Shown here piece by piece: positions 2,981 through 59,405 of a DNA stretch of 64,000 bases. The notes under the pieces are model-generated. The model ran no database searches and was not told the DNA's origin. It was given only the letters and a program-made list of their open reading frames with translations. A program made the position numbers and the translations under genes. Positions within the stretch are counted from its first letter, which is position 1. The number at the start of each line of letters is the position of its first letter. Source of the stretch: Balamuthia mandrillaris (lineage: Eukaryota); NCBI GenBank assembly GCA_031835245.2, contig JAVKOQ020000055.1:1-64000 (forward strand). Direction: 5' to 3'.

Positions 2981-3761
2981 ATGGAAGGGTTCAGCAGCGG
3001 ACTACGACTCACGGGGCTGGACGACCACATCACCCCTTCCCAAGGCTGCGTGAACCCGTTGTTCGTCGATGGTAAGAAGCAGACCGCGGCCATTGATGAG
3101 GATGACGCCAAGCTAGCGGCGGTGGATACCACCAAACGAGCCAAGATCTCCCTGGAGGATGATGGCAGCTACGTGGAGCTCTCCGGCGATGGGCGCAAGG
3201 AAGTGCTGGAGACCGCCACCATCACGTTGAATGACTGCTTGGCGTGCAGGTCTGGTTTTTCTCTCACTCTATCACTCTCTCACTTGCTTCCCTTCGCCCG
3301 CTTCACTATCCTCTCTCGCTGACTTTTTTTTTCCTACTCTTCAGTGGCTGCATCACTTCGGCAGAAAGCGTTTTGATCTCGCAGCAAAGCTCGACCGAGT
3401 TTCTCAGCAAGCTCGCCGAGAAAAAGAGCGCAGGGCTGGTCGTCGTGCTCTCCATCTCCCCGCAAGCAAGAGCTTCCATCGCTGCCTACTACCGTCTCTC
3501 CCTATTGGAGGCATGTGTTTTTTTTGTTTCGCTCTTATGTTTGGTTTGTTGCTTTCGGTCTGACTTTTTCGTTTGTTTGTTTCGCTTTTTGATCGTTCAG
3601 ACGCACCAAAAGTTGATCACTTTTTGCAAAAGCCTTGGCGCTGACTACGTGTTTGACACTTCGTAAGTCACTCTCTTCTTTCTTCTCTCTCCTTTGTTGC
3701 TTTCGTTTCTACTTTCTCTTGTTCTCCTTCTACTCTTCTTCTTTCCATCTCCTTCTTTTTC

Positions 3762-3795
<34 letters not shown>

Positions 3796-5170
3796 CTTCT
3801 TCTTCTTCTTCTTCTTCTTCTTCTTCTTCTTCTTCTTCTTCTTCTTCTTCTTCTTCTTCTTCTTCTTCTTCGTAAGTATTGACAACAAGCAAACGAACAG
3901 ATTTTCACGAGACTTTGCATTGTTGGAATCCATGTTTGAGTTTGTAAGCAAATACAAACAACAGCAACAACTCAACCAAACAGAAAGTGCTTCTTCAGAA
4001 GAAACAACTGCAAGAACGAGAGCAACAAGACGAGACAGAAATGCGTCTAATGTCAACGCAGTACTTCCTGTCTTAGCGTCAGCATGCCCCGGATGGGTTT
4101 GTTATGCTGAAAAGAAGCATCACGAGGTGTTGCCTCATATCAGCACCGCAAAGTCTCCTCAACAAGTGATGGGCTCTCTTGTCAAATACTTTTTCAGCCA
4201 GCAGATTAACCATCGGTACTTATCGTTTCTCTTTTCATGCCATCTCTTTTTAACATATTTTATTCAATAAAGCCCAGAAAAGATATATCACACGTCGGTC
4301 ATGCCCTGTTTCGACAAAAAGCTGGAAGCTAGCCGAAACGACTTTTACAACGAATCTTTGCAAACCAGAGAGGTCGATTGTGTTTTATCCTCTGCTGAAC
4401 TGTTGGACCTCATCAAAGAGAAAGGCGTTGATTTCCCTTCGTTGGAACCATCTCCTCTCGACCCATTGTACTATTCCTCTCTTCTATTCTCTGCGTTCTC
4501 TCTGCTTACCTGTTTACCGCTCGTCTTTCATTTTCTCACTTCTAACTGTTACAACAGATTCACAAACACTGATCCAAAAGAGTTATTCGGAGTAAGAGGA
4601 GGTTCTGGGGGTTATGCCGAATGTGTCTTTCGTTACGCCGCCAAGGAGCTCTTTGGAGTGGACATACCAGAGGATCGTCCTTTGGAATGGAAGCAAGGCA
4701 GAAACCCTAACTTTCAAACGGTGAGCCTGGAGGTGGATGGAGAGACCAAACTTACCTTTGCCAAGGCGTATGGCTTTAGCAACATCCAGAGCTTTCTTCG
4801 TCGGATTCGCTCGAAACGAGAGAAAAGTCCTTATGACTTTATCGAGGTTCGTTTGCTGCTATTTTTTCCTCAGGCCATTTTACTCAACTAACAAACAAAA
4901 AAGGTGATGGCATGTCCATCGGGATGCTTGAACGGGGGAGGACAAGTTCGTCCACAGGAAGGAGAAACGCCAAAGCAACTCGTGGAACGGCTAGAAGATA
5001 TTTATCACCAACAGACAGTCCTAAGACCTCCCCAGCAGAACGCTGCTGTGCAACAGCTCTATGGAGAGTGGCTGCAAGGAGAGCCTTACTCGGATGCTGC
5101 TAGAAAAGTGCTTCACACTCAGTATCATCCTGTCCCCAAACTCACCAATGCTCTTGCGATCCAGTGGTGA
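2981..5170 (+). CDS. NAR1: Cytosolic Fe-S assembly factor Nar1/NARFL/CIAO3 (hydrogenase-like), multi-exon
   Basis: [84 protein letters not shown], conserved C-terminal Trp (AIQW*). Confidence 0.95.
3764..3870. repeat. Compound (CTG)n-(TTC)n microsatellite in a NAR1 intron
   Basis: Directly visible tandem trinucleotide repeats. Confidence 0.95.
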
Positions 5171-5271
5171 TCATATCTTCCTCTTCTCACACTTTTCTGT
5201 TTGCTTTTGTAAAAACAAAGAAAGTAAGTTATTTTATTCTCCTCTTTCCCTATTTCCTCAGTTTCTCTCTG

Positions 5272-5302
<31 letters not shown>

Positions 5303-5357
5303 CATTTTTACATGGGAGAAATAGAGTTGTCTTTCAACAAACAGAACGATACAGACG

Positions 5358-6203
5358 TTAGAACAAGAATGAGCGCAAAGAAGGAGCCGAGCTGCCTTCC
5401 CCTTCCACGCTGAATTGAGGGTCATATCTCACCCAGCTGTCGAACCTGCCAAAGGTGAGCGCAATCTCCGCGTTGCTGCCTCTGATCACAACGTCCACGC
5501 CGACCTCTCCCCAGTTGCCATCCTCGTCGTACTCTGCCTCCTCGGCGAACTGCGCGCGCAAGTTACCGGTACTCAGCGTGCGTGTCTCAGCATCCCAACT
5601 AGGACGTCCCGATGGCACCAAGAGGTTCATGCGGAAGGTTACGCTCGCATCCGGATTGGCAGAGGCGAAGGTCCAGTTGGAGAGAAGCACGGTGAACTTC
5701 ATGCTGTTCACGTCGACGTCAAAGCGTTGCTCGTGGACGGAATAGTTGCCAGCCTCCAGGAAGAGGTAGTACCAAACGTCCAGAGAGGCCGAGGGGGAGG
5801 GAGCAGGCAGCGGCAAGTCGCTGTGAAAGTCCACGCGGAGGGTTTGGAGGCCGTGGAAGGAATGGTTGCGGTCCACGTCGCCGAAATAGGAGTCCAGGCT
5901 GGCAAAGTTGTTGAAGGAAGGGCCGCCGTTGTTCTCCTGGATGCCGAGGAAGCTAAGGAGGAACATCTTGCTGTCGCCCACGTGAGAGAACTTGACTTTG
6001 GCGGAGTTCATCAGATGAACGGAGAGCTCCTCGTTTTCCAGTGCCTCCTCGGGCTCGTCATTGTCTTCTCCTTCATCTTCTTCATGGTGGTCTCTTGCGA
6101 GGCTGAGCCTACTGTGAGGCTTCCAAGAGGCCTCTACGAACGAAAGGCAGAGAGCCACGAGGAAGAGGGCAGAAAGCAAGGCGAGAGTAATGCGAGAGTT
6201 CAT
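5358..6203 (-). CDS. Secreted or cell-surface hypothetical protein
   Basis: 281-aa ORF with signal peptide (MNSRITLALLSALFLVALCLSFVEA), an acidic stretch and a beta-rich-looking domain ending YDP. Confidence 0.7.
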   Translation of the reverse strand: MNSRITLALLSALFLVALCLSFVEASWKPHSRLSLARDHHEEDEGEDNDEPEEALENEELSVHLMNSAKVKFSHVGDSKMFLLSFLGIQENNGGPSFNNFASLDSYFGDVDRNHSFHGLQTLRVDFHSDLPLPAPSPSASLDVWYYLFLEAGNYSVHEQRFDVDVNSMKFTVLLSNWTFASANPDASVTFRMNLLVPSGRPSWDAETRTLSTGNLRAQFAEEAEYDEDGNWGEVGVDVVIRGSNAEIALTFGRFDSWVRYDPQFSVEGEGSSAPSLRSFLF

Positions 6204-6499
6204 GCTTGTTTGTGTGTGGAAAATGTGTTTGTTTCAAAGAAGAAAAAAAGTCCCCTCTTTTATCAGAAATTATTATGAATTGTAATACATGGTTCAAGAA
6301 AAACGATTGGATATTCAAAGAAACTATGCCAAATATGTTAAAAACTCCCGAAAATTATAACCAACACGATTGGTTGTTGCTATGATACGTCCTGTTTCCA
6401 TGGTTACCGTCTAATTTAATTCATTTATCCTCCGGACCAATCATAACAATTCATCCTTTTAATTTATTTTTATTTTATTTTTTATTTTATTTTATTTTT

Positions 6500-7807
6500 T
6501 TAGTGGCGATAAGAAGAGGTGGAATAGAGCGTGTCGTCCTTGGCTCGGCTGAGCTGTCCCAAAAAGTCACCCAAGCCGTCGTCATCGTTGCCACCGAACC
6601 CAAACCCTGCCCTGCCGTCCAAGGTGATGACCTCGGGCGGCGGCGGCGGGGCGGTGGAGAAGAGGGACGGGGAGGAGGGAGAGAACGCCTGGCGAGGGCT
6701 GAGAGCGGTCGCCAAGGTCTTTCTTCGGTCCTTTTGCTCTTCTCTTCTTCTCTGTTGGTATTGCAGCGGAGAGAGGTGTTGTTGTGGTTGTGGTTGTTGT
6801 TGAGGCGGTTCATCGTCCAGGTTGCCTCCCACTAACATTTTGAGAATGGATCCGCTTCGTGCTCGCGAGAGGGAAGAGCTTCGCCCGACGTTTGAAGAGG
6901 AGGAAGCAGAAGAAGCGGTAAACGCTTCGCTCTTTCTTCTGGAAAAGAAAGAGGAAGAGGAACTGCGTTGAGGTTGAGGTTGAGGTTGAGGTTGTTGAGA
7001 TGGTGAGAAAGATGGAGAAGAAGAAGAGGAAGAGGAAGATGAGGAAGAATAAGAGGGAGAAGAACTTCGACGGACAGGAAATGAATCTAAACTGTGAACT
7101 CCGATTGTGGAATGAAGCGAAGCGCTGGTAGAGAGAGGGTCGTGAAAAGGTGAAGCAGGGGATGTTGGTGTTTTAGGAGACGAAACGTTGGAGGAAGAGG
7201 AAGAGGAAGAGGAAGGAGAAGAGGATTTGAATGCGGATGGTTCCTGTGCTAATAGAGCTGGTTGCTCTGAGCTCATTATCTCGAAACTTTGAGAAGCTGT
7301 TTTAACGTTGAGAGAATGGATGAGTATTGAAGCGAAAGAAAAAGAGAAAGAAAGAGAGAGAGAGAGAGAGAGAGATACAAGAATTGAGAAAAATGGAGAT
7401 GAAGAAGAAAGCTTACGACGAAAGGAGAAAGGCAGAGAATGGCTGTGCTTAGAGGTAGGTGGAGAGGATGCAACGATGGAGAACTTTTCGCTTTTGAGGT
7501 ATTGTACAGCAGCTTGGAAAGAAACGAGATTGAAACTGTTTTACCAAGTAACGAACGAGTTAAAAAAAAAGAAAAGGAAGAAGGAAGAAGAAAGTACCCG
7601 AGTTCTGATTTAAGAGAACTAAATGTAAAGTTCTCCATGTAGAAAAGTTGGCTTTGAAGGTGTTTACATTTGGAGAGAACAATGATATAGGCTAAGAATG
7701 GTATAAGGTCGTCCGTTGTAACGATTTCATCTATCAAAGATTGAAAACAAGGAAAAAATAGATAAGAATAAAAAAATATACAGAGATTATGTTGTTTGTT
7801 TCTAAGA

Positions 7808-7842
<35 letters not shown>

Positions 7843-8033
7843 AGTAGACAGAAGAAGGGAACGGGAGGAGCTGATGTGCGATGCTTGAACTGATGGAAAC
7901 TTTCGTGGGTAAAAGGAAAGAACCATCGATAGAGAGAGGAGCATAGCCTTATAAGTTGCTTTCGCACAAGAGCAATTGACCACATGCCCAATGGCAATTA
8001 AATAATGCAAGACATTTGGCCAAAGCTTGTGCT

Positions 8034-8067
<34 letters not shown>

Positions 8068-8654
8068 CAAAGAAACCTGAATTGGGAGAAACTGCAGCTT
8101 GAACGGTTTTCATGATGAGATCGTTGGTTTTCTTAAGGCAGTAGAGTTTTTCAAGTGGGGTTGTCAATGCTTCCAGTTGTTTGAATTGGCGAGTAGGTTC
8201 CACCATTGAACATTGCAACTCCTCTCTCACTCCTTTTCAATAGCAAACAAATAGTTTACGTGTTACTTCCAATACTGCTCAATAGAGAGGAAAGAACAGA
8301 AAAAAGAGACTAACCGAGATCGCTCTGTCGTATTTTCTCGAGCGGGCCAATGATGCCATAAAGTTCGCTGTCCTCTTGCTTGAAGTTATTTCGTATGTTC
8401 TTCCACAGCTTTGCATGAAGTCCATTGCTTACAAAACTAATGCGAAAAAGTAAGAATACAAAATGAAAGGGAGAGACAGAAGAGAGAGAGAGAGAGAGAG
8501 ATTCGTACATTTCAATCATTTCTTTGAGTTCGTTTAAGCATTGTTCGTTGTTCATGTTGTGAAATCGCCGAAAAGTGCCATTAGCACATAACAATGCTTC
8601 AAGGGCATAGTCGAATATTCCTTGAATCTATTTGTATCAAAGCAATAACTCAGA

Positions 8655-8686
<32 letters not shown>

Positions 8687-8924
8687 CAAAAAAGAAGAGT
8701 GAGGGAATATACCTTTTTAACGGCGTGTTGTTCGTAGTTTTTGACCAAGACGTAGGTTTTGTTGAACTGTTCAATATGTTCTTCTATCTTGTTTAAAACA
8801 ATCTCATTCTCGGGGAAAGAGCGCAAAAAGAGAATCGATCTATTGGCCAAGCAGCCGTTACAACAGAAGTGGTGAATAGAGAAAGCGAAAGGTAGAAAGA
8901 GAATAAAGTGAGTTTCTGATCAAT

Positions 8925-8963
<39 letters not shown>

Positions 8964-9753
8964 AACGGACTCGCTTAACGTGCGTTCTTTGGGAAATGGC
9001 ACCTCGCAAAAAGAAGCCACCGAAGCATACTGCTCATTTGTTTCTTGTTAGTTGCAGAGTTACACCGTGCTTGAACAGAGAGAGAGAGAGAGAGAGAGAG
9101 AGCAGAGAAGCAGAGAACGGTAGAGAAGGGAGAGTGAGAGACGTTGGTATGTTTGTTGGTTTCTTGTGTTTCGGCGCAAACAAAAAAGCAACGAGAGAGA
9201 GAGAAAGGGAGAGAGAAAAGGAGCAGAAAAGAGCAGAGCACGAAAGCAAGGAAGAAGAGCGATAAGAAAAGGGGCAGAAAAAAGCCAACCAAAGGGCCAA
9301 TAAGTGGAGACTCCAGACATAGCACTTGGAAGCTTTGCGACTGGTTATTGTAGAACATTTCCTCAAAAAGTATACGCACGGTTCGTTGGTCTTCGAAACC
9401 TTTTTTTTTAACAAAACAAAAAAGAGAGAAAAGTAAATAACAAATAATAGAGAACGAGAGAAGAGAGAACGAGAGAGTGAGAGAACGAGAGCACGAGAGA
9501 ACAGAGAAGAGAGAAGGTAGCAGAAAGGAGAGAGAGAGAGAGAGAGAGAGAGAAGGGAGACGAACCAGATTTGGTTGAGAGAGAGTTGTTCTCCAGAGAG
9601 ATCTCTTTGCCGTTCAACGTGACGTACTGCTCTTTGAACAGCGGAGAGGGTTTCAGTATGTGCGTTTCTACATACAGGAAAAAACGAGTTTTTTTTAACA
9701 CAAGAGCAGCGAGTCAAGTGAAGAGGAAGGGACGAGAAGAGAGAGAGTGTGTG

Positions 9754-9791
<38 letters not shown>

Positions 9792-9988
9792 AATGATGGG
9801 ATTGAAACGTAACTGACAAACTCCTCATCCAAGTTGTTGAGCCCACGCAAGGAGACTTGTTGGGGGACGCACAGGAGGTAGCAGTTCCTCTCCACCAAGG
9901 CGTAGTACCTGGCGTACTTTCGTTTGAGAAACCTGAAAAAGGGGTTCGCCGTCAGGTCCTCCTCCTCCTGTGCGTTCTGGTGATGCAT
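6500..9988 (-). CDS. VPS9-domain Rab GEF with VARP/ANKRD27-like N-terminus, multi-exon
   Basis: EEDLTANPFFRFL...LLCVPQQVSL and RILFEEMFYN resemble the VARP N-terminus; TTPLEKLYCLKKT, TTDDLIPFLAYIIV and ELGY are VPS9 motifs; Ser-rich tail; no ankyrin repeats seen. Confidence 0.8.
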
Positions 9989-10097
9989 CTCTTTTTTTTC
10001 TTCCTTCTTTCTTTGGATGATTTTTTTTGGGTGATTATTGACGATATTTCCGTGAATTATGGGGCATAATCTATCTTTATTCACCCCAAGCAATAAT

Positions 10098-10330
10098 AGT
10101 TGCAACGGCGGGCGACTAAGGCGGCGCCAAGATCAAGCCGATTCATGGGACAACGAAAATAAAGCAAAATTAGTAAAAGGAAAACAAAAAAGGCCAGACA
10201 CAAAAAATAACCCACCACCTCCGGCGTGCCTAATCACGGCTTGTCTTGCGACTCGCTATAAGCAACGGTGCCGGCACCAAAGCAACCTTACCGCCTACCG
10301 CCCCCTCACAGAGGAGGAGGAGGAGGTGGT
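10098..10330 (-). ncRNA. Putative Fanzor omegaRNA (scaffold at the element end plus flank-derived guide)
   Basis: Lies between the Fanzor stop and the TIR; stems GUC-GCAA-GAC (10243-10252) and UUGCU-UAU-AGCGA (10253-10265), long-range AAGCCG/CGGCUU (10237-10242 / 10135-10140); boundaries inferred. Confidence 0.55.
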
Positions 10331-12635
10331 AAGTGCTTGCAACGTAAAAAAGCGGATCAAGATGTTTCGGGCGGCGTTGGCATCTCGATCCGCCTGGTAG
10401 CCACACTCGGGTTGGGGGCACCGAAAGGTCTTGTTTCCCCCAACTGGTGGTGGACTTGGCCGCACTTGCCGCAGGTTTTGGAGGTGTATTCCTCATCGCA
10501 GAGGCAGACCGTACAGGACGGAAATTGCTGGGCCTTGTTGAGGAGCCTCTGCCTGAAGCGATAGTGGGACCAGGTGAGCATGGCTCTGGCCGTTCGCGAG
10601 CCAATGCGGCGGTGGCCTCGCCGCACCATCTGCTGGCTCCTGAACTCTGGCAGAAGGATGAGGGAGAAGTTCCTGACCAACCAAGACACGAGCTTCTTGT
10701 GGAGGTCATCCACCAGGTTGCGGATCCTCTGGCGAAGCCGAGCAGCGGCCCTTCGGAGACGGCGCCGTTGCCTGTGGTTGCCCTTGGTGCCCTTACTCTG
10801 CATGCGATCCAGGCGGTGGCACAGCTTGCCTATCTCGTTGATGTCCGCTTTGCCCCACTCGGTGACCTCCCCGCAGCCGTTGTAGGTGGTCATGAATGTG
10901 CGCACTCCTGGATCCAAGGCGATGATGCCTGCCTCTCTCCTTCGGTGCTCACGGGCTTGGCTCTCGCCCATGAGCTTCAAAGGCTGAGGCACGCAGAGGT
11001 AGTAATGGCCCAGTCGAGTGTCCTTCACCAGACGAACGGCATAGAGCACCTCTGACGGAACTTTGTAGTTCTTGTCCCTCGCTTTGATTCGCGCCTCCCC
11101 GAAGAAGAGTTGGCGGATAGAGCTGTTGTGGTTCCACTCCCTGGCTTGGATGCTGAGAGACTGGCTCTTGTCCTTCCTACCACGGAACTTCATCTGGAAT
11201 CCAGTCGTGCCTCTGCCCGCCGCCAAGCTGGTTTTCACGCCGTTGAAGAAATCATCGACAGCGTCACTCCGAATGAATCGAGGAGTTTCCAACACCCACG
11301 CAAGGCTCTTGTTCTCTCCCTTGAAATTGCTGTTATTTAGGAATTTCTTCCTGACTTGTTCCTTCATCTCATCACGAGGCATTCCTTGATGTTCACGATG
11401 GAACTCCACGGCCTTGTTGTAGGTCCATCGTACTGTGCCGAACCACTTGGCCAGCGTCTTCTTTTGTTCTGAGCGCGGATAAAGGCGGATCTTCTCCACT
11501 CGCCCCACTACCGGTTTCTCCTCTCCGTTCTTGCCTTTTTTGGTGAGCTGTACGGCTGGGCGAGACGGAACGAGTCCCTCGATGAGGCCTAACAAGCCTT
11601 TCTGGTTTTTCTCCTCTTCTTCCTTCTCCTTCTCCTTCTCCTTCTCCTCTTCCTCTTCCTCCTCCTCCTCCTCCCTCTCCTTCTTCTCCTCCTCCTCCTC
11701 CAACACCTTTTCTCCGTTAGGAATGTGCTTGCAGGCGGTGAACCATCCTGAACCACAGGCAAAGGGTTCTTCCAAGCACAAGGCTTCCGGGCGTATTAAT
11801 CTTCTCCCGATTAAGCTGGAAAACTGGTTCCAAAAGGGCTGGGCAGGTGCAGCCTGCGGCCTACCACGCTTCTGTGCCCTTGCCTGAGGTGCCGCTGGGG
11901 CGTTTTCCGCTCTTCTTTTCCGAGTAGCAGTGGAAGTAGCAGAAGTAGTGGCGCGACCCCCTTCCTTGTGAACCCGACCGAAGTGGATGGCCAACCCGTG
12001 AGAGGTAGGTAGCAAACTTTTTTCCGCACTGTGGGCAACTTGCCATTCAGGCCAGCTTCCAGCAGCGTTGTGGAAGAGGCGCACAGAGGTTCGTGATGCT
12101 GTTCTTTTTTAAACAAAAGAAATCATTAGTGAGTGGTTGGTAACAAATTTTTTTTTCCATCATCAAAAAATGTAGTGAGCGAGCAGAGAAAAAAGAACGC
12201 TACCTTTTCAATCGGAGCAGTGCCCCTGCCTGCGGCTGAACCGCTTCGGTTTCCACCTCTGCCTCCTTCCGCTGGTTTCCTCCTTGTGTAGTAGAAGCGT
12301 AGCAATGAGAAATACGGTGGTGCGTGGAGCTTCGTGGATGTGAGTGTCTGTGTGTTTACTTTTGAAAAGAAAGAAAAGAAGAGAAGAAAAGAAAACGAGT
12401 AGCAGAAAAGTGTCAAGGCGAATGACGAGTACCAAAAGTTTATTGGCGGCAGCAGCAGCATGAGCATCCATTCCGTACACCCCCCACCCCACACCCCAAC
12501 CCACCACTTTGCCTTCAAAGACGTGGGAGAAGGAAGGGTTGTTTTGGCGGGAAACATGCTCATTGGCCCAAAAGACTAATGTCGTGATTTCTTTTTTCGT
12601 TGTCCTTAGATCTTATGATCTTTGCGCCGCCTTAG
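10116..12635 (-). mobile_element. Non-autonomous TIR DNA transposon carrying a Fanzor gene
   Basis: TIRs CTAAGGCGGCGCCAAGATCA (10116-10135) and TGATCTTTGCGCCGCCTTAG (12616-12635) match 19/20; second inverted block GGACAACGAAAA (10148-10159 / 12594-12605); flanking direct repeat GGCGGGCGACT at 10107-10117 and 12635-12645. Confidence 0.9.
10295..12084 (-). CDS. Fanzor2-type (TnpB/IS605-IS607 OrfB-like) RNA-guided nuclease, frameshifted near the 3' end; true start probably upstream via introns
   Basis: KIRLYPRSEQKKTLAKWFGTVRWTYN (HTH_OrfB), IIALDPGVRTF (RuvC-I), ILLPEF, WSHYRFRQRL, DEEYTSKTCGKCG; adding one G at the C5 run 10437-10441 restores LGGNKTFRCPQPECGYQADRDANAARNI (Zn finger plus RuvC-III), stop at 10295-10297. 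Confidence 0.92.
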
Positions 12636-12968
12636 GCGGGCGACTGGTGTCGACGCAAAGTCGAGTCGACGCAAAGCGCGAGGACCTCAGGTGGGGGAAG
12701 TGGTGCGTGGAGCATCTGTACGTGGTGGCAACGGAGGAGCTACTTGAGGTTCGTGCAGGTTGTGATAACATGTACAATGGTTACACACAACCAAACAAGA
12801 CGCGTCAGAAAAACTTCAAGCAACAAGAAAAGGCAATAAACGGAATTCGGAAACGAAGAACTAACAAGAAGCGAAACAGCATCATAGCGAACAAAAAAAA
12901 CAACAATGGATTGCCCCGAGGCTATCTCAGGCCCGAGAAGAAAGGATATAACACACCAGCGGAGGAGT

Positions 12969-13695
12969 TCATACATGTATCTCTTCAAAGCTAAGGCCTT
13001 GTTCACGGCACAGTTTCGCCATGAACTCTACATCAATCCCAGCTCCATAAGGGATAGGAATACAATCCGCCTTCATCTGGTGAATCTGCTGGCATAGGTT
13101 CCTCCATGTAGGACCCAAGAGGGGGCGTGGGCTTTGTATGCGATGGTGGCAGATCGCTTGGTGGGAAGCGTAGCTTGAAAAGTGCACACGTCCTTCGTGG
13201 AGCTCTTCCTGGGAGGGCCAGTTGCAAAATTCGTTGTTTTCATCCTTGTTAGCTTGTTGGTGCTGTATCATAAAGCTTTGTTGGAGGTCCTCCATCACCT
13301 TTCTGCAGAAGGCAGCTGCGGTCTTAAACTTCAGAGATTGTAGGTCGCGCCTCTGCAACTCTATGTCCCGCTCGCGCCGTTCAAGTATGATTTGAAGGTC
13401 GCGCTTCTCCAACTCTGCGTCGCGCTTCTGTAGTTCAAGTTTGGTTTGAAGGTTTGCCACCCGAACTCCCAGCGCCAGGACTTCAAAGTTTACCTCGGTG
13501 GGGGCTCCCTTGCAGCGATCCAACAAGCGCAAAACGTCGATGTGGTTCTCCACGGAGTTCGCCTGCAGCAGGTGGGCAAGTTTCTGTTGGGTTTCAGCCA
13601 GTTCTTTCTGTAGTGCCGTTGTTTCTAATGCCTCCGACGCGTCTTGTATGTCTCCTCCTCCTTCCTCTTCCTCCTCCTCTTCTCCAGCGTGTCCC
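12969..13695 (-). CDS. Hypothetical coiled-coil protein (start uncertain)
   Basis: Open frame ...ALQKELAETQQKL...LELQKRDAELEKRDLQIILERRERDIELQRRDLQ...GLSFEEIHV*. Confidence 0.45.
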
Positions 13696-13941
13696 TAACG
13701 GCAAACCATACCCCTCAAGCAGCTGTCCGCAACAATGCGAGGGAGCATCAGATATCTGCCAACCTATTATATCAAACCCTCAACCTCGCAGTCGACAAAA
13801 AAGGAACAGATTTCCGATAAAATTGCGAAATATTTATAACTATTGCACGATCGTTGTCGACATAATCAAATAAAATGAGCATAAACTGAGTACCTATGCT
13901 GCACGATTGTCTACAAAAATAAAAAAACCCAACAGAAGAAG

Positions 13942-16900
13942 ATGGACGTAGGAGAAGCGGACGTGGTGATCAACGCCGCTCTGAGCTTTCTTCTTCGCGC
14001 CCCCTTCTCGCTGGCCGCCAGCGAAACGGCCCTGGTCGATAAAAAGCTGCACGCGCTGGAGCGAGACACGCACCTCAACAACCTCTGCGCCTTCGCCTTC
14101 CAATTCGGCCTCGGCGCCGACCAGCTCCACTCCGTCGTCCTCCACCTCATCTGCTCCGACGAGGAGGAGCTCCAACTCCTGCTCGAGAAGCAGCTGCTGG
14201 AAAGCCACGAAAACGCCACCGTTGCCGCCGCCACTGAAGGAGGAGAGAGGCAGAAGCAGACGAAGAAGCAGACGACGAGGAAGAGATTGTCGTTGGATGA
14301 AAGGGCCAAACGACGACTGCTGAAAAGCCTGTTGCCGCGAGGGCAGGTGCGAGAGGACACCCTGATCCAGCTGTTGGGGGCCTTTGGGCAGGCGGACTTT
14401 GGGGCGACCCTCCAGCGCCTCGCCCTGCGGTGGATGGTGCTCGTGTGGGAGCTGCTGGACTCGACGGAGCGGCTGCACGCCCTCTATGGTGTGTTCTTTC
14501 ACTACCTGGAGGTGGACGCCCTGCGCCCCTTTGTGTGCAACCTGTTGTTTCGGCTGACCCGGCGGGAGCATGTCCTTCCCTTTCGCGTGAGGAAGCTGTA
14601 CGCTCGCTGCTCTTCTCTTCTCTCTACCCTGCTCTCTTGCTCTCTTGCTCTCTTGCTCTCTTGCTCTCTTGCTCTCTCTCTCTCTCTCTCTCTCTTGCTC
14701 TCTTCTCACTTTTGTTCTGTAACAAAGACAACAATTGCAAGAAAAGTTAGGCCACGACGTTGGAGTGCAAGCCTTGTTGATGATTTATTGTCAGTACTTC
14801 CCTGATTCGGTCGTTGTAAACGATCAACACAAGTCCATCTCATCTTTGTTTAAGGTATAATACTCTGTTCTTTTTCTTCCTCCTTTCATCTTTCGGTAAG
14901 ATAGCGAGAGTGAGAGACTTTTGTACTAACAGCTTGATTATTCTTTTTTTAAAAAAAAACAAACAGTTGGTTCCACGAAAGTTGGAAGAACAACTAATCC
15001 TCATTCAAGAACAGTTTAATGCTGATGTCTCTTCCGACGAAGAGAAAGGTGAGGAAGAAGAAAACGAAACAGAAAACACCCAAGCTGTAAATGTAGGCGA
15101 AAAGAGAAGAAAAAACGAGTCTGCTACTGAAGAAAGAAGAACGCCAGAAACGAAAAAGCGGAGAACACAATCTCTTGATGCTTCTTCTTCTAGTACTATT
15201 GATCCCTCTCGTCCTCTTGCATTAGATGCACAGCGGACACCCAACTTGTATGCAAACCGTCTTCGTAGTCGTGGGCGTCACTCTGCCTCTTCGTCTTCCT
15301 CGGATTCGTTGGGTCATGGTTCTTCTCTTAGCTTACTACCTGCACTTACCACAACTTCTCGCTTGGTACTTCGTTATTCTTTGCCCTTTGCTCTTTCTTT
15401 CTTGCTCTCTCGTTCTCGTGCTTTCACTCTCTTCCCTGCTTCTCTCTTCTTGTATTTATTATTTATTTATTTCCTTCTATTTCTTCCAACAGGAGGCTAT
15501 AGCAAGCAAAACAACAAAAGTGGCGATGGAGCAAATATCATCTATAGATGAATTCTCCAAAAACGTTGAGCTGATAGCTTTACCTGACCAAATGGCAGCC
15601 ACTATTTCGCATCGTTATCTGCAACATTTTATTTTACTACACCCCCAACGTACTTTCTTATTCTTTTTCGTCTTCTCCTTCCTCTTCTTCTTACATACTT
15701 CTTTTGTGGCATAACAGCATCTTCGATTCAACGAATTAGTTATTGGCTATCTTTCGTGTTGGAGGAACTGTTTCATTGGAAGAACAGAAGCACTGCCGAC
15801 AACCACTTCCATCCTACTGATCATCTTTTATTGCAATTGGCCAATTTTGCTGAGTTTATTCAAGTATTTCTTTCCTGCTGCTTTCTTCATTCTTCATTTT
15901 CTATCTTCTTGCTTATTATCTTTGTCTCTTTTTCTTTAAAATTTTGAACAGGAAACCATTCCTTGTTTCGAAAGATTCTTGCACGACTTTTTGCGAAGAT
16001 GGGATGGCATTCACCACTTTGACGCCATACTCCGTCTCATTACTTTCATCCATCCTTGTCCCTATCAAAAACTCTACGACTACATTCTTCAACCCATTCG
16101 GAAGCTATTTTTCACTTCTTCTGTTCAAACTAAGGTAACCTCTTGCTATTCTCTCTGTTCTTTTAACACTTGTTCCTTACTATTATTTTATGTTTATTGC
16201 TTTAAAAATCAGGCGAGATATTTGGAATGTTTTACAGACTTGGTTGAGAATTGGGCTTCTATCAACTGGACAGACTTTTACAAATCCTCTTCCTCATCAT
16301 CATCATCTTCTTCTTCTTCTTCTTCTTCTACTTCTTCCAGATACATTTTCCACAAACTCTCTAAAGATGTGGATTATATGAGTACGTTGCGACTGCTTAT
16401 CCGCTATGTGGATAAACTGTGCGTTTTGGCTTTGGAGCTGGACAACAATCACAGTCTTCTTCTTCACGCCGTTCTGTCTTTTTATGAAGTCGTACGTCGT
16501 TCTCAATCTCTTTTCTTCTTCGTATATCTCTTTCTCACCTCTCTTTTTGAAAAAAAACAGGTTTCAAAACTATGTTCGAACTACGGACTCCCGTTTAGTA
16601 TACCTCCCTCTCCTGGGGTGGTCTATCGTTGCTTGCTGTCCTCAACGCCAATGGCCGTCTCTAGACTTTGCGGCATTATCGTTCAGTACAAAACAGATTT
16701 CGAGAGAGCAGCCTCGATAACAACTTCGACATCGATGGTGATGATGAGAGGCGGCAAAAACATTCACGACAACAACGCGGAGAATGTTAAAGTGCTGAAC
16801 AAGTATATATCGGACTTGGGAGTTGCGTTCTGGAGGAACAACGCTTTCGATCGGCCTGCCAGCTCCTTTGACTTATCTGAGTACGTTTTGGTCTTTCTCT

Positions 16901-17390
16901 GTGCCATGACTTTCTGTTCTTGTTGCTTTGCTTTTTCTAAGTTGGTAACATCCGCATTTTTTTTTCAAAAACAAAAGAGCAACCGTGCAGAACATGAAAT
17001 ATCCAGGAATGCAATACAGCCTCTCCATCACGCACTCCATTCCCTTCAGTTCTTTGGCGTGGGAATATATCAAACGTTTGGAGAGCAAAGGCCTCGTCCC
17101 CGCTAACACGTCCCCTAATCCAGGCGTTATCTTGCGGGTTTGTTTCTCATCTTTCCGCTCTGCGTCTCTCTTCTTCTCCTCTTCAATCTTCTCTCTCTTT
17201 CTTTTTCACTTATCGTCTCTTCGCTTTGAAACAACAGAATGAAGATTTACGGTATGGTTATGTAAAGTATCTAGCGGAGCGGGAGTTCACAGGGGTCTCA
17301 GAGTTTCTATTCACGTTCGTAAACCGCCTATCCACTCGAAGAGCCAAAGAAAAAGAAGAAGAGAAGCAAAAAGCATCACCAGGAAAATGA
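13942..17390 (+). CDS. CENPI: Centromere protein I (CENP-I/Mis6/Ctf3), multi-exon
   Basis: LQRLALRWMVLVWELLD, LYGVFFHYL, LRPFVCNLLFRLTRREHVLPFRVRKL, IALPDQMAA, FLRRWDGIHH; last exon ends KASPGK* at 17390. Confidence 0.85.
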
Positions 17391-17409: not shown

Positions 17410-17713
17410 TTAACAACCAAGTTCTTTTTGTAGCGCGAGATGAGTTTGTTGTCTCATCATCTCGCGGAAGCACATCGTTGCATAAGTTGAGGATGGCAGC
17501 ATAAAACTTGCTCTCACTCCTTTAAACTTTTTCTCTCCTATTTTTAAAGTACGCCAGAATGAGAAGAAATAAACAAGAAAGAGAGGAAAAAAACAAACCC
17601 GAAGAAGCGGGCAAAGAAACGCCTGTTAAAAGATCCAAATCTGTTAGTAACAGATTCTCATCTGGGTCCGCGTAATGCACTATCTCCCTATGTTTTTCCT
17701 TTGTCAGAGCGAG

Positions 17714-17753
<40 letters not shown>

Positions 17754-19007
17754 GAAATAGACAAGGAGCGAACAAAAAAAACTAACCATTTCAAATCATG
17801 AGGACGTTCGATGAGCTTACGATAGCCGCCAGGCAAGCGATAATCACGCACCGGCTGATCCCTGAACGTCTCCACTGAAATAGAGTCAAGTGCCATGGCC
17901 TCGTGATACGCTTTTCCGATCTCATTCTGTGGGAAGAGAACGTTGTGGCCTGGTAAAGGTAACACCACGTCATCAATCGTATAATGCTTCAACTCTTCTT
18001 CCGTTTCCAAAACTTTGACACTTCGTTTGTTATTGCTGTCCATCGCTACGCTATCTTCGCCTTCTGCTTCTTCGTTGAGTTCTTGTTCTTCTTCCTCTTC
18101 CTCTTGTACTTTTGCTTTTTCATTTTCTTCGGTGGGAGTGGAGACAAACACTAAATCGCCGAGGATTGGATGGAGAGCGCCGTAGCGTTGTATGCGTTCG
18201 CTTGCCATCAAGTTCCAGATGTAGCTCTGATAGCTGTGCCCATACATCGTTCGCATGTTTCTTGGTAGCTATTTGATTTTTAAAATCGTTCGATAAGGAT
18301 AGAGTGATAGCGGATAAGAAAGAAGATAGAAGAAAGAGTTGAGAGGGATAAGAGTACTGTTGCAAAGGCGTTACAAAACTGAGTGGGTCCCTGTCGTCGG
18401 AGAGCCTCGAGAAGCAAACGTTCCACCACCAAATGCTTTGGAAGTTGTTTGAGTGTGCCATTGATGTCGCCCGTCTCTGCATAGTACTTCCGTGCGTTTT
18501 CCACTGATTCTAGTTCTTTTAAAAAGTACGGGTGGAATTATATTTAGAACTAAAATAACAAGCAGAGAAAAAAAAAAGGAATGGATACCTCCAGCACGAG
18601 GTTGCAGCACAAGAGAGGCAGCCTCCTTCCAATTGCCTTTAATGAGCACAACACCAACCCGATGAGTAGGAACGGAGGACGTGCCAAACCGCTGAAGCCC
18701 AAAGTAATTGATGAAGCCATGTTTTTGCAAGTGTTGCAAAGAATTGTTGATTTGTTCATCTGGTGCAGTCACATTCCTATTATTGTAAGAGGGTTTTTTT
18801 AAAAATAAATAAACGAGAAAGGAAAGTAGGGAGTAATGAGGGAAACAAAAAGCGGAACGAGGAAAAGGAGGAAGAAGTAGGGGAAGAGTGATATAAATAC
18901 CTCAAAACGATTTCAAAATGGTTGCCAGCGAGATCGCCTAACCGCAATGGTTTTGTCACATATCTGCAGATTCATATGTTAAAACAACACTAACAGAAGC
19001 GAGGAGA

Positions 19008-19043
<36 letters not shown>

Positions 19044-20677
19044 GAGAGAATGTAGCAGCAAAAAATTATGAACAGAAGAGCAGTGACGCAGCTGCATCAT
19101 CTGCGATAGGAACATGCTGCTTTCTCAAAATGTTTTCGCTGTCATCCGATTTGTAACAAGAGCTTCATTGAAATAACACAATAACACTTGTGTTAAGTGT
19201 TATTTGATGTGTTTCTCATTAACTCCTGCTATTAGAACGGATTTCACAAAGAAGCAAGTGGGGAAGAGGAAGGAGCAAGAAAAAAAGAAGAAGAAAAGGG
19301 TTGGAACGAAGAGAAAGAAAGAGGTAACGTACGAATAGTTGCCAACGCGTAAACCGCGCAGCCGAGCGTTCAATCCGGAGAGCTTGCGTACATCAAGTTT
19401 AAAACCAGTGATGTGTTGAGTGGTAACTCCTCTCTTATCTTTTGTGCCAGAAAATGAGAATATCTTCCCTCCTCTTACGCTATTCACCATGTTAAACAAA
19501 GCAAACAAGAGGAAAAGAAATAAGTAATGACTGATAAATACACACTTAAACGTTTCAAAGATGAAGGAGAGAGGGAGAAAGAAGAACAAAAAGAACAAAA
19601 AGAAGAAAGAAGAGTACAAGACTGAAAGAATAGAAAGGCAAAAGCCAAAACACAAAAGAGAAATGAGGACGAACCCAAGCATCTTTCCCAACAAGTTCAA
19701 CGCAAAGGTTGTATCCTTGTTCTCCTTGTACAGCACGAAACGAAGGTAGGTCCCTCTATCCGCTGGCCATTCCCTCCTCTTCTGTCTTCTCTGCTGCGAG
19801 CCGCTATTTCCTCCCGTGAACTTCACCACTATTCTCTGGCTATTCTCCGACGACGAAGAAGAACAGCTTTCAGACTGCGTCATCAAGACACTGCCAAAGA
19901 AGCGTTTGAAGAGCTGATGGACGGCCGTGCGGTGGTCCTTGTCGTCGTCCGCCGCCAAGCGAAAGCAGGGCAGGGCCTTCTTCTCCCGCTGGGAGAGCAG
20001 CGCGAAGCGCTCGTTCCAGTAGTGCTGGTGGAGCCACTCAAAGAGCCGTTCGCTCTCCTCTTTGCCCAAGAGGTTGGCAAAGTGAGTCCTGGCCTCTTCT
20101 CTCTCCGCTTCGCTCCCCGGCAGAGCATTTGAAGTCGGTTGTTGTGGTTGTGGGGCATCGGTTGAGGAAGCTGCTTCGCTTTGGGTTTCGGTTGTTTCTT
20201 CTTCCGCTTCTTCGGGAGGAAGAGAAGAAGTGTCAGTGAGACGAACGATGGTTCCGTCGGAAGCTACTTCTCGAACGATGAAATCAGTGTATCTTTTTTT
20301 TAAAATGTTGTGAGTTTGATTGGGGTATTGGAGAAAGAAAAGAAGAGGAAAAGAAAGGGGGAAGGGTGGTTTTTCGTTTACCTGTGTTTAAAGACGCCGG
20401 ACCAACCCTGTGTCTCGTTGTTGAGAAAGATTCGAATGCCAACATCCCCCTCCAGCACTGACACTTGTTGGCGTTGCGGTTTTTTCTGTGGCGGTTGCTG
20501 CTGGCTATTGTTGCCCACCTCGTCATCATCATCCCTTCTCACTTTTTTGGTTGGCCCTTCTTCGCCCTCTCCTGTGTTGTCTTTGTGCTTCTCTGGCCCG
20601 TTGTTAGCTTCACCGTGCTGCGGCGCTTCTGTGGTCCGAGTGTCGTCGAGCTCTCTCTTCCTGCTCTTTCCTTCCAT
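17410..20677 (-). CDS. PUS7: Pseudouridine synthase TruD/PUS7, multi-exon
   Basis: YLRFVLYKENKDT, FSFSGTKDKRGVTTQ, LRLGDLAGNHFEIVLR, GFINYFGLQRFG, MYGHSYQSYIWN, VVLPLPG, LPGGYRKLI, FMLPSSTYATMCFRE. Confidence 0.95.
19064..19250 (-). ncRNA. Candidate intronic H/ACA-like structured RNA
   Basis: Hairpin (19144-19242), ANANNA box AAAACA (19131-19136), hairpin (19074-19125), AUA tail (19067-19069), inside a 369-nt intron (18964-19332). Confidence 0.5.
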
Positions 20678-40161: not shown

Positions 40162-40644
40162 TTACTTGGCCTCGGGTTCGGCGGCGGTGCTGCCCATGCT
40201 GGACTGGTACTTGGTGACGGCCTTGGTGCCCTCAGAGACGGCGTGCTTGGCCAACTCACCGGGGAGCAACAGTCGGACGGCGGTCTGGATCTCGCGGGAG
40301 CTGATCGTGTTCTTCTTGTTGTAGCGAGCCAGGCGGCCGGCCTCCAGGGCGATCCTCTCGAAAATGTCGTTGACAAACGAGTTCATGATGGACATGGCCT
40401 TGTTGGAGATACCAGTGTCGGGGTGGACCTGCTTGAGGACCTTGTAGATGAAGGTGGCGTAGGATGTGTAGTTCTTCTTGCTGGACTTGGAGACTCCGCC
40501 CTTGGGCTTGGTGGAACCGGCCTCTCCGGCAGCTCCTCCCTTCTTGGAAGCTCCTCCCTTCTTGGCTCCGCCCTCCGCGGTGGCGGGCTTCTTGCCAGCT
40601 CCACGGCCGGTGGTCTTCTTGGTGGCAGCGCCTTCAGTGGACAT
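40162..40644 (-). CDS. H2B: Histone H2B
   Basis: [33 protein letters not shown]...[31 protein letters not shown]. Confidence 0.98.
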
Positions 40645-41176
40645 TGTGTGTGTAGTGTGTGGTAAAAAAAAGGGGGGGAAAAAAAAAGTAGCGAGGAACA
40701 AACAAAAAAAAAGTTTGCTGTTTTTTTTTTGGTGTTTGAAGTGTTTTGCTTCGAGTTGATGGAGGATGAGAAGAGGGATAAAAGTTTTTTTTTGTATTTA
40801 TAATCCACAGGGGGAAAAGTTTTGGAGGGAAGTGTTGGTAACGGTCGGAATTTTCCTTTCCGGATCGCCACGTCACTCAAAATCCATCCTTCCCGTTTCC
40901 TATTGGCTCCCAGAACCCACGTCATCCAAAATCTGAGGTAGGAGTTGTCATTGGCCCTAGGTTGTTTCCTTTTATGAATGCCACGTCACCCAACATCCTT
41001 CCGCTAATCCCTCATTGGCTCTCCTGGCTCTGTTAACCGTTGGTGGTTTCCCGCCTTTCCCACCAAAAATATAAAGTTAAAAAACTTCCCCACTTTTTTT
41101 TGTTAATCACTTCAACTCTCAAATCGAAGCAAGAAACACTCCCCTTATTTTTTTTTTGGTCTCTGCCAACAACAAG
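40645..41176. promoter_or_regulatory. Bidirectional H2A/H2B promoter
   Basis: TATA-like elements on each side (~40797 minus, ~41070 plus); three CCACGTCA and three ATTGG (CCAAT) motifs. Confidence 0.7.
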
Positions 41177-41653
41177 ATGTCTTCTACTGCTGGAGCTACC
41201 GCTGGAAAGAAGCCCAAGGCCGGACGCGGAGGAGCCGCTCGCCCCGCTGGAGGTGCCGGAAAGAAGGCCGCTGGCGCTGCCGGTGGCGCTGAGGTCTCGC
41301 AGACTCGTTCCTACCGGGCAGGCCTCCAGTTCCCCGTTGGAAGGATCCACAGACAGCTCCGTGAGGGCCGCTACGCCGCTCGCGTCGGTGCCGGTGCCCC
41401 CGTCTACCTGGCTGCCGTCTTGGAGTACTTGGTGGCAGAGATTTTGGAGTTGGCTGGCAATGCCTCTCGTGACAACAAGCGTGTGAGGATCATCCCCAGG
41501 CATATTCAGTTGGCCGTCAGGAACGACGAAGAGCTCAACAAGCTCTTGCAGGACGTGACCATTGCCTCTGGTGGTGTCATCCCCAACATTCACTCTGTGC
41601 TCATCCCCAAGAAGTCCAAGAAGTTCGGCGAGACCATGTCCCAGGAGTACTAA
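41177..41653 (+). CDS. H2A: Histone H2A with H2A.X-type SQEY C-terminus
   Basis: [47 protein letters not shown], ends SQEY*. Confidence 0.98.
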
Positions 41654-58696: not shown

Positions 58697-59405
58697 AATC
58701 TTTAAAGCCGAAAGCACCTTCATCTAAGGAGTGAAAAGGATACCTCCCACATCGAAAACCAAACAACAATACTTATTGCTTCACCCAGCTCGAGTGCACT
58801 CGGCATGCTAGTGCGCTTCCTACACCGCGACTGGAAAAGATGATTCGTAAGCTGGAGGCATGATGTTTGAATGTGACAACCAAGGAAAGAGACAGACAAT
58901 TACAAGAAAGTTTTGCCTCAAGGAGCAGTTCAAGCTGTTCCATAGCCATGCCACTTATCAGCTCAAACTGTCTTCGTCTTTCTCTTTCCTTGGTTGTCGT
59001 GTCCAAACATGCCTCCAGCTTATGAATTATCTTTTCCAGTTGTGCAAGCTTTTCTCTTTCCTCATCTCCGCTCTCTCTCACCATTTTATCTAACCGAGAA
59101 AGAGGGAAGGAGAAAAAGAAGGTGTTGTTGTTTCTTGCTCGTTTATTAACGCCAATAAATGTGCCGTTCAGTACTCAACGCAACTGCTTTCTGTTGTTTT
59201 GCTTAGCCAAAGAGATCCGCTTACCAGATCGTTGTGTTTTTTTCGAAGAAAGATAGATAGAAAGAGAAGAGAGAATGAACCGAGGTACAGAGTCACACAG
59301 TCTTCTATTGTTGGCCCGTCTAAAAAAAAAGGAGTGGAGGATAAAGGAAGGAGATGTCAATGCTAAGGGCTTGATTTAGGTACAAGAAGAACAAGGGGAA
59401 GAAGC

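What the first reader, a model, noticed from the sequence alone, without database searches (positions are those of the whole stretch)
10107..12645. Complete TIR- and TSD-bounded transposon carrying a Fanzor2-type RNA-guided nuclease and no transposase
Seen: 20-bp TIRs (19/20), a second 12-bp inverted block, and the direct repeat GGCGGGCGACT at both junctions. This gives an 8-bp TSD (ends CTAAGG...CCTTAG, 10116-12635) or a 10-bp TSD (ends TAAGG...CCTTA, 10117-12634). The only cargo is a TnpB-like gene with DPG, LLPEF (Pro at the canonical RuvC-II Glu position), the alternative Glu in DEEYTSK, a Zn finger and DRD. Known: Fanzor2 proteins are typically tied to IS607-like serine-recombinase elements, which lack TIRs and long TSDs. 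Inference: a Fanzor2-like nuclease has been captured by a cut-and-paste element with a hAT/MuDR-like TSD length and is mobilised in trans; the intact TSD suggests a recent insertion. This may be an undescribed Fanzor-transposon pairing.
Basis: partly seen in the sequence, partly recalled or inferred. Interest (0 to 1): 0.93.

Follow-up and report, generated by a model that had tools for sequence, protein, structure and literature searches.

The report
Amoeba transposon carrying captured Fanzor2 nuclease
A 2.5-kb repeated element with inverted ends and a 9-10-base flanking duplication, likely from the amoeba Balamuthia, carries only a Fanzor2 nuclease gene (frameshifted in this copy) whose close relatives mostly sit in IS607 elements, so it is likely one more independent capture of this predicted RNA-guided enzyme by a cut-and-paste transposon, a kind already described in molluscs and one alga.

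Summary
The element is real. TIRs (19/20), the 12-bp inner block and the junction repeat are as described. Other copies in four public runs stop at the same ends, and internally deleted derivatives exist. Corrections: the 8-bp TSD reading fails (15 of 17 other right ends lack the G); the TSD is 10 bp with a fixed base, or 9 bp. This copy is broken twice, with DRD out of frame. The protein is a Fanzor2 (best structure match mimivirus Fanzor2). 93 of 139 related loci carry an IS607 recombinase motif, none a convincing TIR plus TSD, and no tnpA remnant is left here. Fanzor2 inside TIR/TSD transposons is published ('Fanzor2*', Yoon 2023: Chloropicon, molluscs); Balamuthia appears in none of my searches. 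So this is a new, probably independent, amoebozoan member, not a new kind. Weak evidence (shuffle p 0.01-0.12) suggests the guide-RNA pseudoknot now pairs with the TIR tip, leaving the TSD as the first 9 guide bases. Partner transposase, empty allele, small RNA and nuclease activity remain untested. The scan's earlier notes held nothing on this family.

The parts
10107..10116 (+). Left copy of the target-site duplication, GGCGGGCGAC (10 bp; or 9 bp, 10107-10115, if C10116 belongs to the element)
   Evidence: C10116 shared by 6 of 6 other left ends visible
10117..10135 (+). TIR at the gene's 3' end, begins TAAGG (19 nt; 20 with C10116)
   Evidence: depth of four runs jumps here
10148..10159 (+). 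Inner inverted block GGACAACGAAAA, candidate transposase-binding site (inferred)
10116..10299 (-). Putative omega-RNA scaffold region from the stop codon to the element end (inferred by position; not matched by the model of relatives' RNAs)
   Evidence: position and length like relatives; CM R1 gives no hit; fold z +0.89
10280..10296 (-). Hairpin AGGCGG-[TAAGG]-TTGCTT whose loop (10286-10290) is complementary to the terminal CCTTA: candidate rewired pseudoknot
   Evidence: shuffle p 0.12, 0.06, 0.024, 0.010 for stem of 3, 4, 5, 6 or more
10295..12046 (-). Fanzor2 gene: C2H2-like finger at the likely start (MASCPQC), basic NLS-like patches, acidic tract, HTH, DPG (D 10912-10914), LLPEF (P 10648-10650), alternative Glu (10492-10494), zinc finger, DRD (10382-10390). 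Broken in this copy at 12004-12011 (4 extra bases) and 10437-10441 (one base short)
12099..12203 (-). Intron upstream of the likely ATG (GT..AG on the gene strand)
   Evidence: joint 12098->12204 with CT..AC ends in run X4, depth 153, flagged 'between: not known'
12594..12605 (+). Inner inverted block, partner of 10148-10159
12616..12634 (+). TIR at the gene's 5' end, ends CCTTA
   Evidence: 15 contigs in three runs leave the element after 12634
12635..12644 (+). Right copy of the target-site duplication, GGCGGGCGAC

Best explanation
This is one copy of a multi-copy element with terminal inverted repeats whose only gene is a Fanzor2 nuclease gene, likely captured from an IS607 element and likely moved by a DDE transposase supplied from elsewhere in the genome. 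Shown: the ends, the repeat at both junctions, many copies sharing the ends, internal-deletion derivatives, absence of any transposase or tnpA remnant, Fanzor2 identity, RNA contigs along the whole element, two frameshifts in this copy. Inferred: a cut-and-paste transposase (9-10-bp duplications point to a Mutator-like or IS4-like enzyme, from recalled TSD lengths) excises and inserts it; intact copies make Fanzor2 plus an RNA that runs from the stop codon through the 3' TIR into the flank; the scaffold ends at CCTTA-G and the next bases (the rest of the TSD, then unique flank) are the guide; the enzyme cuts the empty site left by excision or on the homologous chromosome, where a G-ending TAM (CAG here) precedes the guide match, and repair from the filled allele restores the element. 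This copy cannot encode an active nuclease as assembled but could still donate a guide RNA to enzyme from intact copies.
For: Ends shared by other copies, summed contig depth 3,900-15,900 inside versus mostly 15-80 outside in X1, single contigs at depth 126-148 versus 12-20 in X12, deletion joints 10173->12528, 10226->12557, 10425->12568. 13 B. mandrillaris gene models of the family. Fanzor2: Pfam HTH_OrfB_IS605, OrfB_IS605, TNB; best PDB sequence hit 9b0l E 2.6e-18; best Foldseek hit 9b0l E 2.5e-14 versus Fanzor1 8gkh 6.7e-05; D, P, P, E, D columns in 154, 153, 149, 152, 151 of 154 aligned proteins. IS607 origin: recombinase motif beside 93 of 139 loci with 600 nt or more upstream, 98 of all 159; the window protein falls among them in the tree. 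No TIR plus TSD of 7 or more in those loci except two AT-rich chance-like pairs. Runs X4 and X6 hold spliced RNA, cover the element and carry neither frameshift (C present 508/522 and 313/313; 4 bases absent 1088/1088 and 376/376). The kind is documented: Fanzor2*; restorative homing reviewed.
Against: No partner transposase identified; the one DDE-like gene in the window has no TIRs. 0 of 13 gene models hold DPG, DEExTSK and DRD together; P0122 shares this copy's frameshift. The 3' region is not matched by the model built from relatives' RNAs and folds no better than shuffles (z +0.89, -0.06, +0.02). The TSD is seen as a pair in one copy only. Tree support near the window protein is modest (0.73) and its branch long (0.82), and the published Fanzor2* proteins were not in the tree. 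5 contigs of X12 leave the right end 3 bases early. Only 24 of 442 loose-end rows and 15 of 58 joints were shown.
Confidence: 0.7

Rival explanations
1. Same transposon, but the nuclease is a decaying passenger: the guide RNA scaffold was lost at capture and the family amplifies purely through its TIRs.
For: Two frameshifts in this copy; 0 of 13 gene models complete; deletion derivatives; no match to relatives' RNA model; unremarkable fold.
Against: Expressed haplotypes in X4 and X6 lack both frameshifts and X12 mostly does; the breaks in gene models fall at different homopolymer runs, as long-read errors would; catalytic residues are kept; the base after CCTTA is fixed; a loop complementary to the tip sits where relatives have theirs.
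Confidence: 0.2
2. Still an IS607-type element moved in trans by a serine recombinase at a G-containing core; the inverted ends and the 10-bp repeat are secondary (for example a repair duplication at this one site).
For: Fixed G at the 3' end as in IS607; consensus flanks in X1 and X6 read GG before the 5' end in gene sense; most relatives are IS607.
Against: The base before the 5' end varies (C, C, T, G consensus on the + strand) and is not G in this copy; 19-20-bp TIRs plus a second block; relatives' multi-copy elements have sharp ends with no TIR or TSD; no tnpA remnant; IS607 makes no TSD.
Confidence: 0.06
3. Not an independent capture: the element descends from the same capture as the Chloropicon Fanzor2* element.
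For: The Chloropicon protein shown in the supplement has the same DPGVRTF and LLPEF motifs (read by eye); the mollusc protein does not.
Against: Those motifs mark the whole subclade, including IS607-linked members (149 of 154 have the Pro); IS607-linked relatives at 42-46% identity surround the window protein.
Confidence: 0.12

Closest known systems
Fanzor2* elements of Chloropicon primus and molluscs (Yoon et al. 2023, PMC10711439)
   Same: Fanzor2 inside a non-IS607 cut-and-paste element with TIRs and TSD; captured independently more than once; pseudoknot predicted to be kept.
   Different: Different host supergroup (Amoebozoa); long variable TSD of 9-10 bp that cannot lie wholly in the scaffold as proposed there; C2H2-like finger at the likely N-terminus. 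The published TSD lengths are in figures I could not read, so 'longer TSD' is not established.
IS607-type Fanzor2 (ISvMimi/ApmFz2 9b0l; ACa-1/2 of Acanthamoeba; loci L002-L005 etc.)
   Same: Protein architecture, DPG, alternative Glu, N-terminal PFW motif region, fixed G at the 3' end.
   Different: No serine recombinase, TIRs and TSD present, 3' RNA not recognisable by the relatives' model.
Fanzor1 in MuDR-like non-autonomous elements ROr-4, PBl-3, MCi-4 (9-bp TSD) and Spu-1 with ghost copies (Bao and Jurka 2013; Saito 2023)
   Same: Nuclease-only cargo between TIRs, long TSD (MuDR cases), deletion derivatives that keep the ends.
   Different: Cargo is Fanzor2, not Fanzor1; no matching autonomous MuDR found here.

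Membership tests
Fanzor2 | DPG in RuvC-I and alternative Glu six residues before the zinc finger, no canonical Glu | tested here: met
Fanzor2 | TnpB-like compact fold with HTH, closer to ApmFz2 than to Fanzor1 | tested here: met
   (model lacks the N-terminal 175 or so residues and the DRD segment)
Fanzor2 | Complete catalytic triad in one reading frame | tested here: not met
   not in this copy nor in 13 gene models; both breaks are absent from the main contigs of X4 and X6, so likely met by some copies
Fanzor2 | 3' omega-RNA with pseudoknot | tested here: inconclusive
   relatives 22 of 24; window: candidate loop p 0.01-0.12, no CM hit
Fanzor2 | RNA-guided, TAM-dependent DNA cleavage | not testable with these tools
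   needs biochemistry
IS607 | Serine recombinase TnpA upstream of tnpB | tested here: not met
   (profile from 90 relatives, no hit in element or window)
IS607 | No TIRs and no TSD | tested here: not met
Fanzor2* (Fanzor2 in a eukaryotic cut-and-paste element) | Fanzor2 bounded by TIRs shared among copies | tested here: met
Fanzor2* (Fanzor2 in a eukaryotic cut-and-paste element) | TSDs around multiple copies | tested here: inconclusive
   one paired TSD; other flanks seen only unpaired as consensus; no genome held
hAT | 8-bp TSD | tested here: not met
   needs G at 12635 in all copies; 2 of 17 contigs that reach 12634 have it
MuDR/MULE | 9-10-bp TSD (recalled; 9 bp) | tested here: met
   for the one copy with both flanks
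MuDR/MULE | Autonomous MULE transposase with the same TIR | not testable with these tools
   no genome held; none in window; TIR pattern absent from viral contigs

The most novel reading that the evidence does not exclude
A third independent Fanzor2 capture caught with its adaptation visible: the omega-RNA pseudoknot has been rewired so that a TAAGG loop pairs with the TIR tip CCTTA, the transposase picks targets with a G at one fixed position so that the 5' copy of that G ends the TAM and the 3' copy ends the scaffold, and the other 9 bases of the TSD become the start of the guide. Every new insertion would write its own guide with a matching TAM, in a family of tens to hundreds of copies, and broken copies would act as a guide library for intact ones.
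Probability: 0.3. Interest if true: 0.75.

Novelty: new member of a known kind. Interest (0 to 1): 0.5.

Why it matters
Fanzor2 captured by eukaryotic transposons is the proposed intermediate between IS607 nucleases and Fanzor1, and rests on an alga and molluscs. An amoebozoan case with many copies adds a likely independent replicate and lets one read target preference, TSD, TAM and guide boundary from a single genome. A long variable TSD poses a question the short-TSD model (TSD absorbed into TAM and scaffold) does not answer: how the guide and TAM are placed when 9-10 target bases are duplicated. It may also supply another compact Fanzor2 for tool surveys.

Tried and rejected
No genome was held, so copies could not be collected with both flanks. 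The empty allele was not among the 15 of 58 joints shown; that is no evidence either way, and the junction was not examined further in reads, so raw RNA reads, strand and RNA ends are unseen. No RNA holder was listed as such. 8-bp TSD and hAT: rejected. tnpA remnant (a 'KKVCY..RV' look-alike near 12010): rejected, no profile hit. DDE_3/HTH_32 gene at 57026-58546 as partner: rejected, no TIRs, degenerate catalytic motifs. TIR pattern in viral contigs: 0. Fusions with a DDE transposase among 78 longer homologues: none (weak evidence). Rfam on 9900-12900: nothing real. CM R1 from 19 relatives found unseen relatives (for example L031, L037, L004, L008, L081) but not the window's 3' region; the model has only 3 pairs. 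An internal, fixed-guide reading (scaffold ending at TATAGCG or GTAAGAC inside the element) was considered; the first has no matching loop and the second is also a plain GNRA hairpin, so it was set aside, not excluded. My first TIR script missed its own positive control because GA repeats outranked it and was redone. The C2H2 regular expression was faulty; one search found the motif in P0001 only. A bacterial promoter scan was uninformative for a eukaryote. Earlier notes of the scan: four look-ups, nothing relevant.

Full report
Observation. The TIRs (10116-10135 / 12616-12635, 19 of 20), the inner 12-bp block (10148-10159 / 12594-12605) and the 11-nt direct repeat at both junctions are present. 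A scan for a TIR of 13 in 15 with an adjacent exact repeat of 7 or more finds only this element in the window and 1 hit in 12 Markov simulations of the window. There is no second copy in the window. The long minus-strand ORF holds DPG, LLPEF, DEEYTSK and the first half of the zinc finger, but DRD lies in another frame. No whole genome was held.

Host and context. The best protein hits are named Balamuthia mandrillaris (83-99% identity). The element lies between a VPS9-domain gene on the left (its ATG near 9987 is my reading of the sequence) and a transcribed gene without Pfam match on the right. A Balamuthia genome preprint calls the genome replete with unannotated transposable elements and does not mention TnpB or IS605 in its main text.

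It is a family. Four runs from four samples were laid on 9000-14000 (4 of 23 listed). Summed contig depth rises at the ends from mostly 15-80 to 3,900-15,900 in X1, and single contigs reach depth 126-148 against 12-20 for flanks in X12; the tool warns that this is no copy number, so I say only tens to hundreds. Joints 10173->12528, 10226->12557 and 10425->12568 are internal deletions that keep both ends; one joint puts two copies head to tail. Thirteen B. mandrillaris gene models belong to the family; P0124 appears to be this copy's own.

Ends and TSD. Of 442 loose-end rows 24 were shown. At the right end 15 contigs leave after 12634 (X1 6, X6 3, X12 6), 2 after 12635 (X4) and 5 after 12631 (X12). 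The 8-bp reading needs G at 12635 in every copy and fails. At the left end the C at 10116 is present in 6 of 6 records visible (2 loose ends at 10116, 1 at 10118 whose loose letters end in CA, 2 joints, 1 piece from 10115). So in gene sense the element runs TAAGG...CCTTA and is followed by a fixed G. Either the TSD is 9 bp and G is the element's last base, or it is 10 bp with a target-derived first G. Counting by hand, the tenth flank base after 12634 is C in all four run consensuses and in the window, and G in the head-to-tail joint (5 of 6); those consensuses are about 44% C and agree only 0.5-0.7, so this is modest support for a target-derived base. Only the window copy shows a TSD as a pair.

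The gene. P0001 and P0128 start MASCPQC, a C2H2-like finger, at ATG 12046; among 120 homologues and 159 loci the motif was found only in P0001, and residues 1-110 found only two Balamuthia proteins. The window copy has 4 extra bases at 12004-12011 and one base too few in the C run 10437-10441. Both are absent from the main contigs of X4 and X6 and mostly of X12; in X1 the 4 bases are absent in 4497 of 8192 and the C present in 1159 of 9473 depth units. P0122 shares the second break, others break at other homopolymers, and 0 of 13 models hold all three catalytic motifs. Whether these are real or long-read errors is open. X4 and X6 skip an intron of the neighbouring gene and so hold RNA; both cover the whole element, and X4 shows a CT..AC skip at 12099-12203, an intron on the gene strand. 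Both also skip 12089-12175 with GT..AG on the opposite strand, not seen in X1 or X12, which I cannot explain.

What the protein is. Pfam gives HTH_OrfB_IS605, OrfB_IS605 and Cas12f1-like_TNB. Mimivirus Fanzor2 (9b0l) is the best hit by sequence (E 2.6e-18) and by fold (E 2.5e-14, TM 0.66; Fanzor1 8gkh 6.7e-05, TM 0.35; model pLDDT 85). Of 159 related loci (80 metagenomic of 539 confirmed, 79 viral from 97), 98 carry the IS607 recombinase motif, 93 of the 139 with 600 nt or more upstream; only two AT-rich loci pass a relaxed TIR plus TSD test. Many contigs are short and may lack ends. Multi-copy relatives have sharp ends without TIR or TSD. In a FastTree tree of 154 proteins (203 before removing near-duplicates; the window gene read with X at the break; P0061-P0120 and the Balamuthia models left out) the window protein sits on a long branch (0.82) among recombinase-linked proteins, local support 0.73. 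A profile of 90 relatives' TnpA finds no remnant.

The RNA. Relatives have a clear scaffold: a small hairpin just after the stop codon whose loop pairs with the terminal bases, followed by a G; 22 of 24 show 4 or more Watson-Crick pairs, with loop and tip changing together. A weak covariance model of them does not hit the window, and the window's 3' region folds no better than shuffles. But a hairpin at the equivalent place has the loop TAAGG, complementary to the terminal CCTTA, which is followed by the fixed G. Shuffles give this in 12%, 6%, 2.4% and 1% for stems of at least 3, 4, 5 and 6 pairs; the thresholds were chosen after seeing the case. PMC11832414 notes that the Fanzor2 pseudoknot escapes secondary-structure prediction. 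I treat the rewired pseudoknot as plausible and unproven.

Mechanism. Most likely a DDE transposase in trans moves the element; intact copies make Fanzor2 and an RNA reading through the 3' TIR; the guide begins after CCTTA-G, so its first 9 bases are the TSD; the empty site offers CAG before the match, in line with 3-nt G-rich Fanzor2 TAMs (ApmFz2 GGG); cleavage and repair from the filled allele restore the element. At the filled locus the 5' junction matches only 9 guide bases and the 3' junction has TAG in the TAM position, so self-protection would depend on TAM specificity, a testable point. All of this paragraph is inference.

Comparison and novelty. Bao and Jurka 2013 tied Fanzor2 to IS607 without TIR or TSD and reported Fanzor1 in MuDR-like elements with 9-bp TSD (PMC3627910, parts 1-4 of 7 read). 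Yoon 2023 described Fanzor2* in TIR/TSD elements of Chloropicon and molluscs as independent captures (PMC10711439, passages and part 4 of 7; supplement searched). Jiang 2023 lists Fanzor2 with Helitron, hAT and IS607 (PMC10530073, passages). A 2026 review repeats this (PMC13565253, passages). Saito 2023 (PMC10432273) and Schargel 2024 (PMC11832414) were seen as passages; the Balamuthia preprint as two passages. Balamuthia with Fanzor gave 0 papers, Fanzor with 10-bp TSD 0, and Balamuthia had 0 hits in the supplements of Yoon, Jiang and Saito (one Saito file unreadable). Figures (with the published TSD lengths), Repbase, subscription papers and bioRxiv supplements were not seen and may bear on novelty. 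TSD lengths for MULE up to 10 bp and IS4-like elements are recalled.

Verdict. A real, probably independent amoebozoan Fanzor2* family; new member of a known kind. Interest 0.5; 0.75 if the rewired pseudoknot and TSD-as-guide logic are confirmed (probability about 0.3).

Noticed in passing
window 12089-12175: The main contigs of RNA-holding runs X4 and X6 skip this stretch with GT..AG ends on the + strand (antisense to Fanzor); not seen in X1 or X12. Antisense intron or a deletion in an expressed subfamily.
   Followed up: no
window 57026-58546 (+): IS630/Tc1-like gene (HTH_32, DDE_3) with degenerate catalytic motifs and no TIRs; possibly a domesticated or dead transposase.
   Followed up: partly
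window 58830-59040: Long foldback: arms of 33 nt (94%) plus 42 nt (81%) around a 64-nt loop, just downstream of that gene; possible MITE or hairpin RNA.
   Followed up: no
window 9451-9491: Short stretch with high depth and many loose ends in X1 and X12, a different genome-wide repeat.
   Followed up: no
window 12649-12676 and 12760-12829: 12-nt direct repeat GTCGACGCAAAG beside the right junction and a second haplotype with 9 differences in X1, X4, X6, which could belong to an empty allele.
   Followed up: no
L034:2590-4806, L035:1626-3845, L036:872-3054: A 2.2-kb multi-copy Fanzor2 element at three different sites with neither the recombinase motif nor TIR or TSD.
   Followed up: partly
L005:2287-2409, L024:2012-2109 and 22 more loci: Compact (98-155 nt) omega-RNA family of this Fanzor2 subclade with a pseudoknot whose loop and terminal bases change together.
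   Followed up: partly
window 3617-4888, 13942-17103, 17525-20387, 40165-41650: Ordinary host genes: Fe-hydrogenase-like, CENP-I, TruD/PUS7, and a divergent histone pair.
   Followed up: no
P0163, P0197: Long homologues joined to a helicase (Naegleria lovaniensis) or to resolvase plus DNA polymerase domains; probably gene-model chimeras.
   Followed up: no
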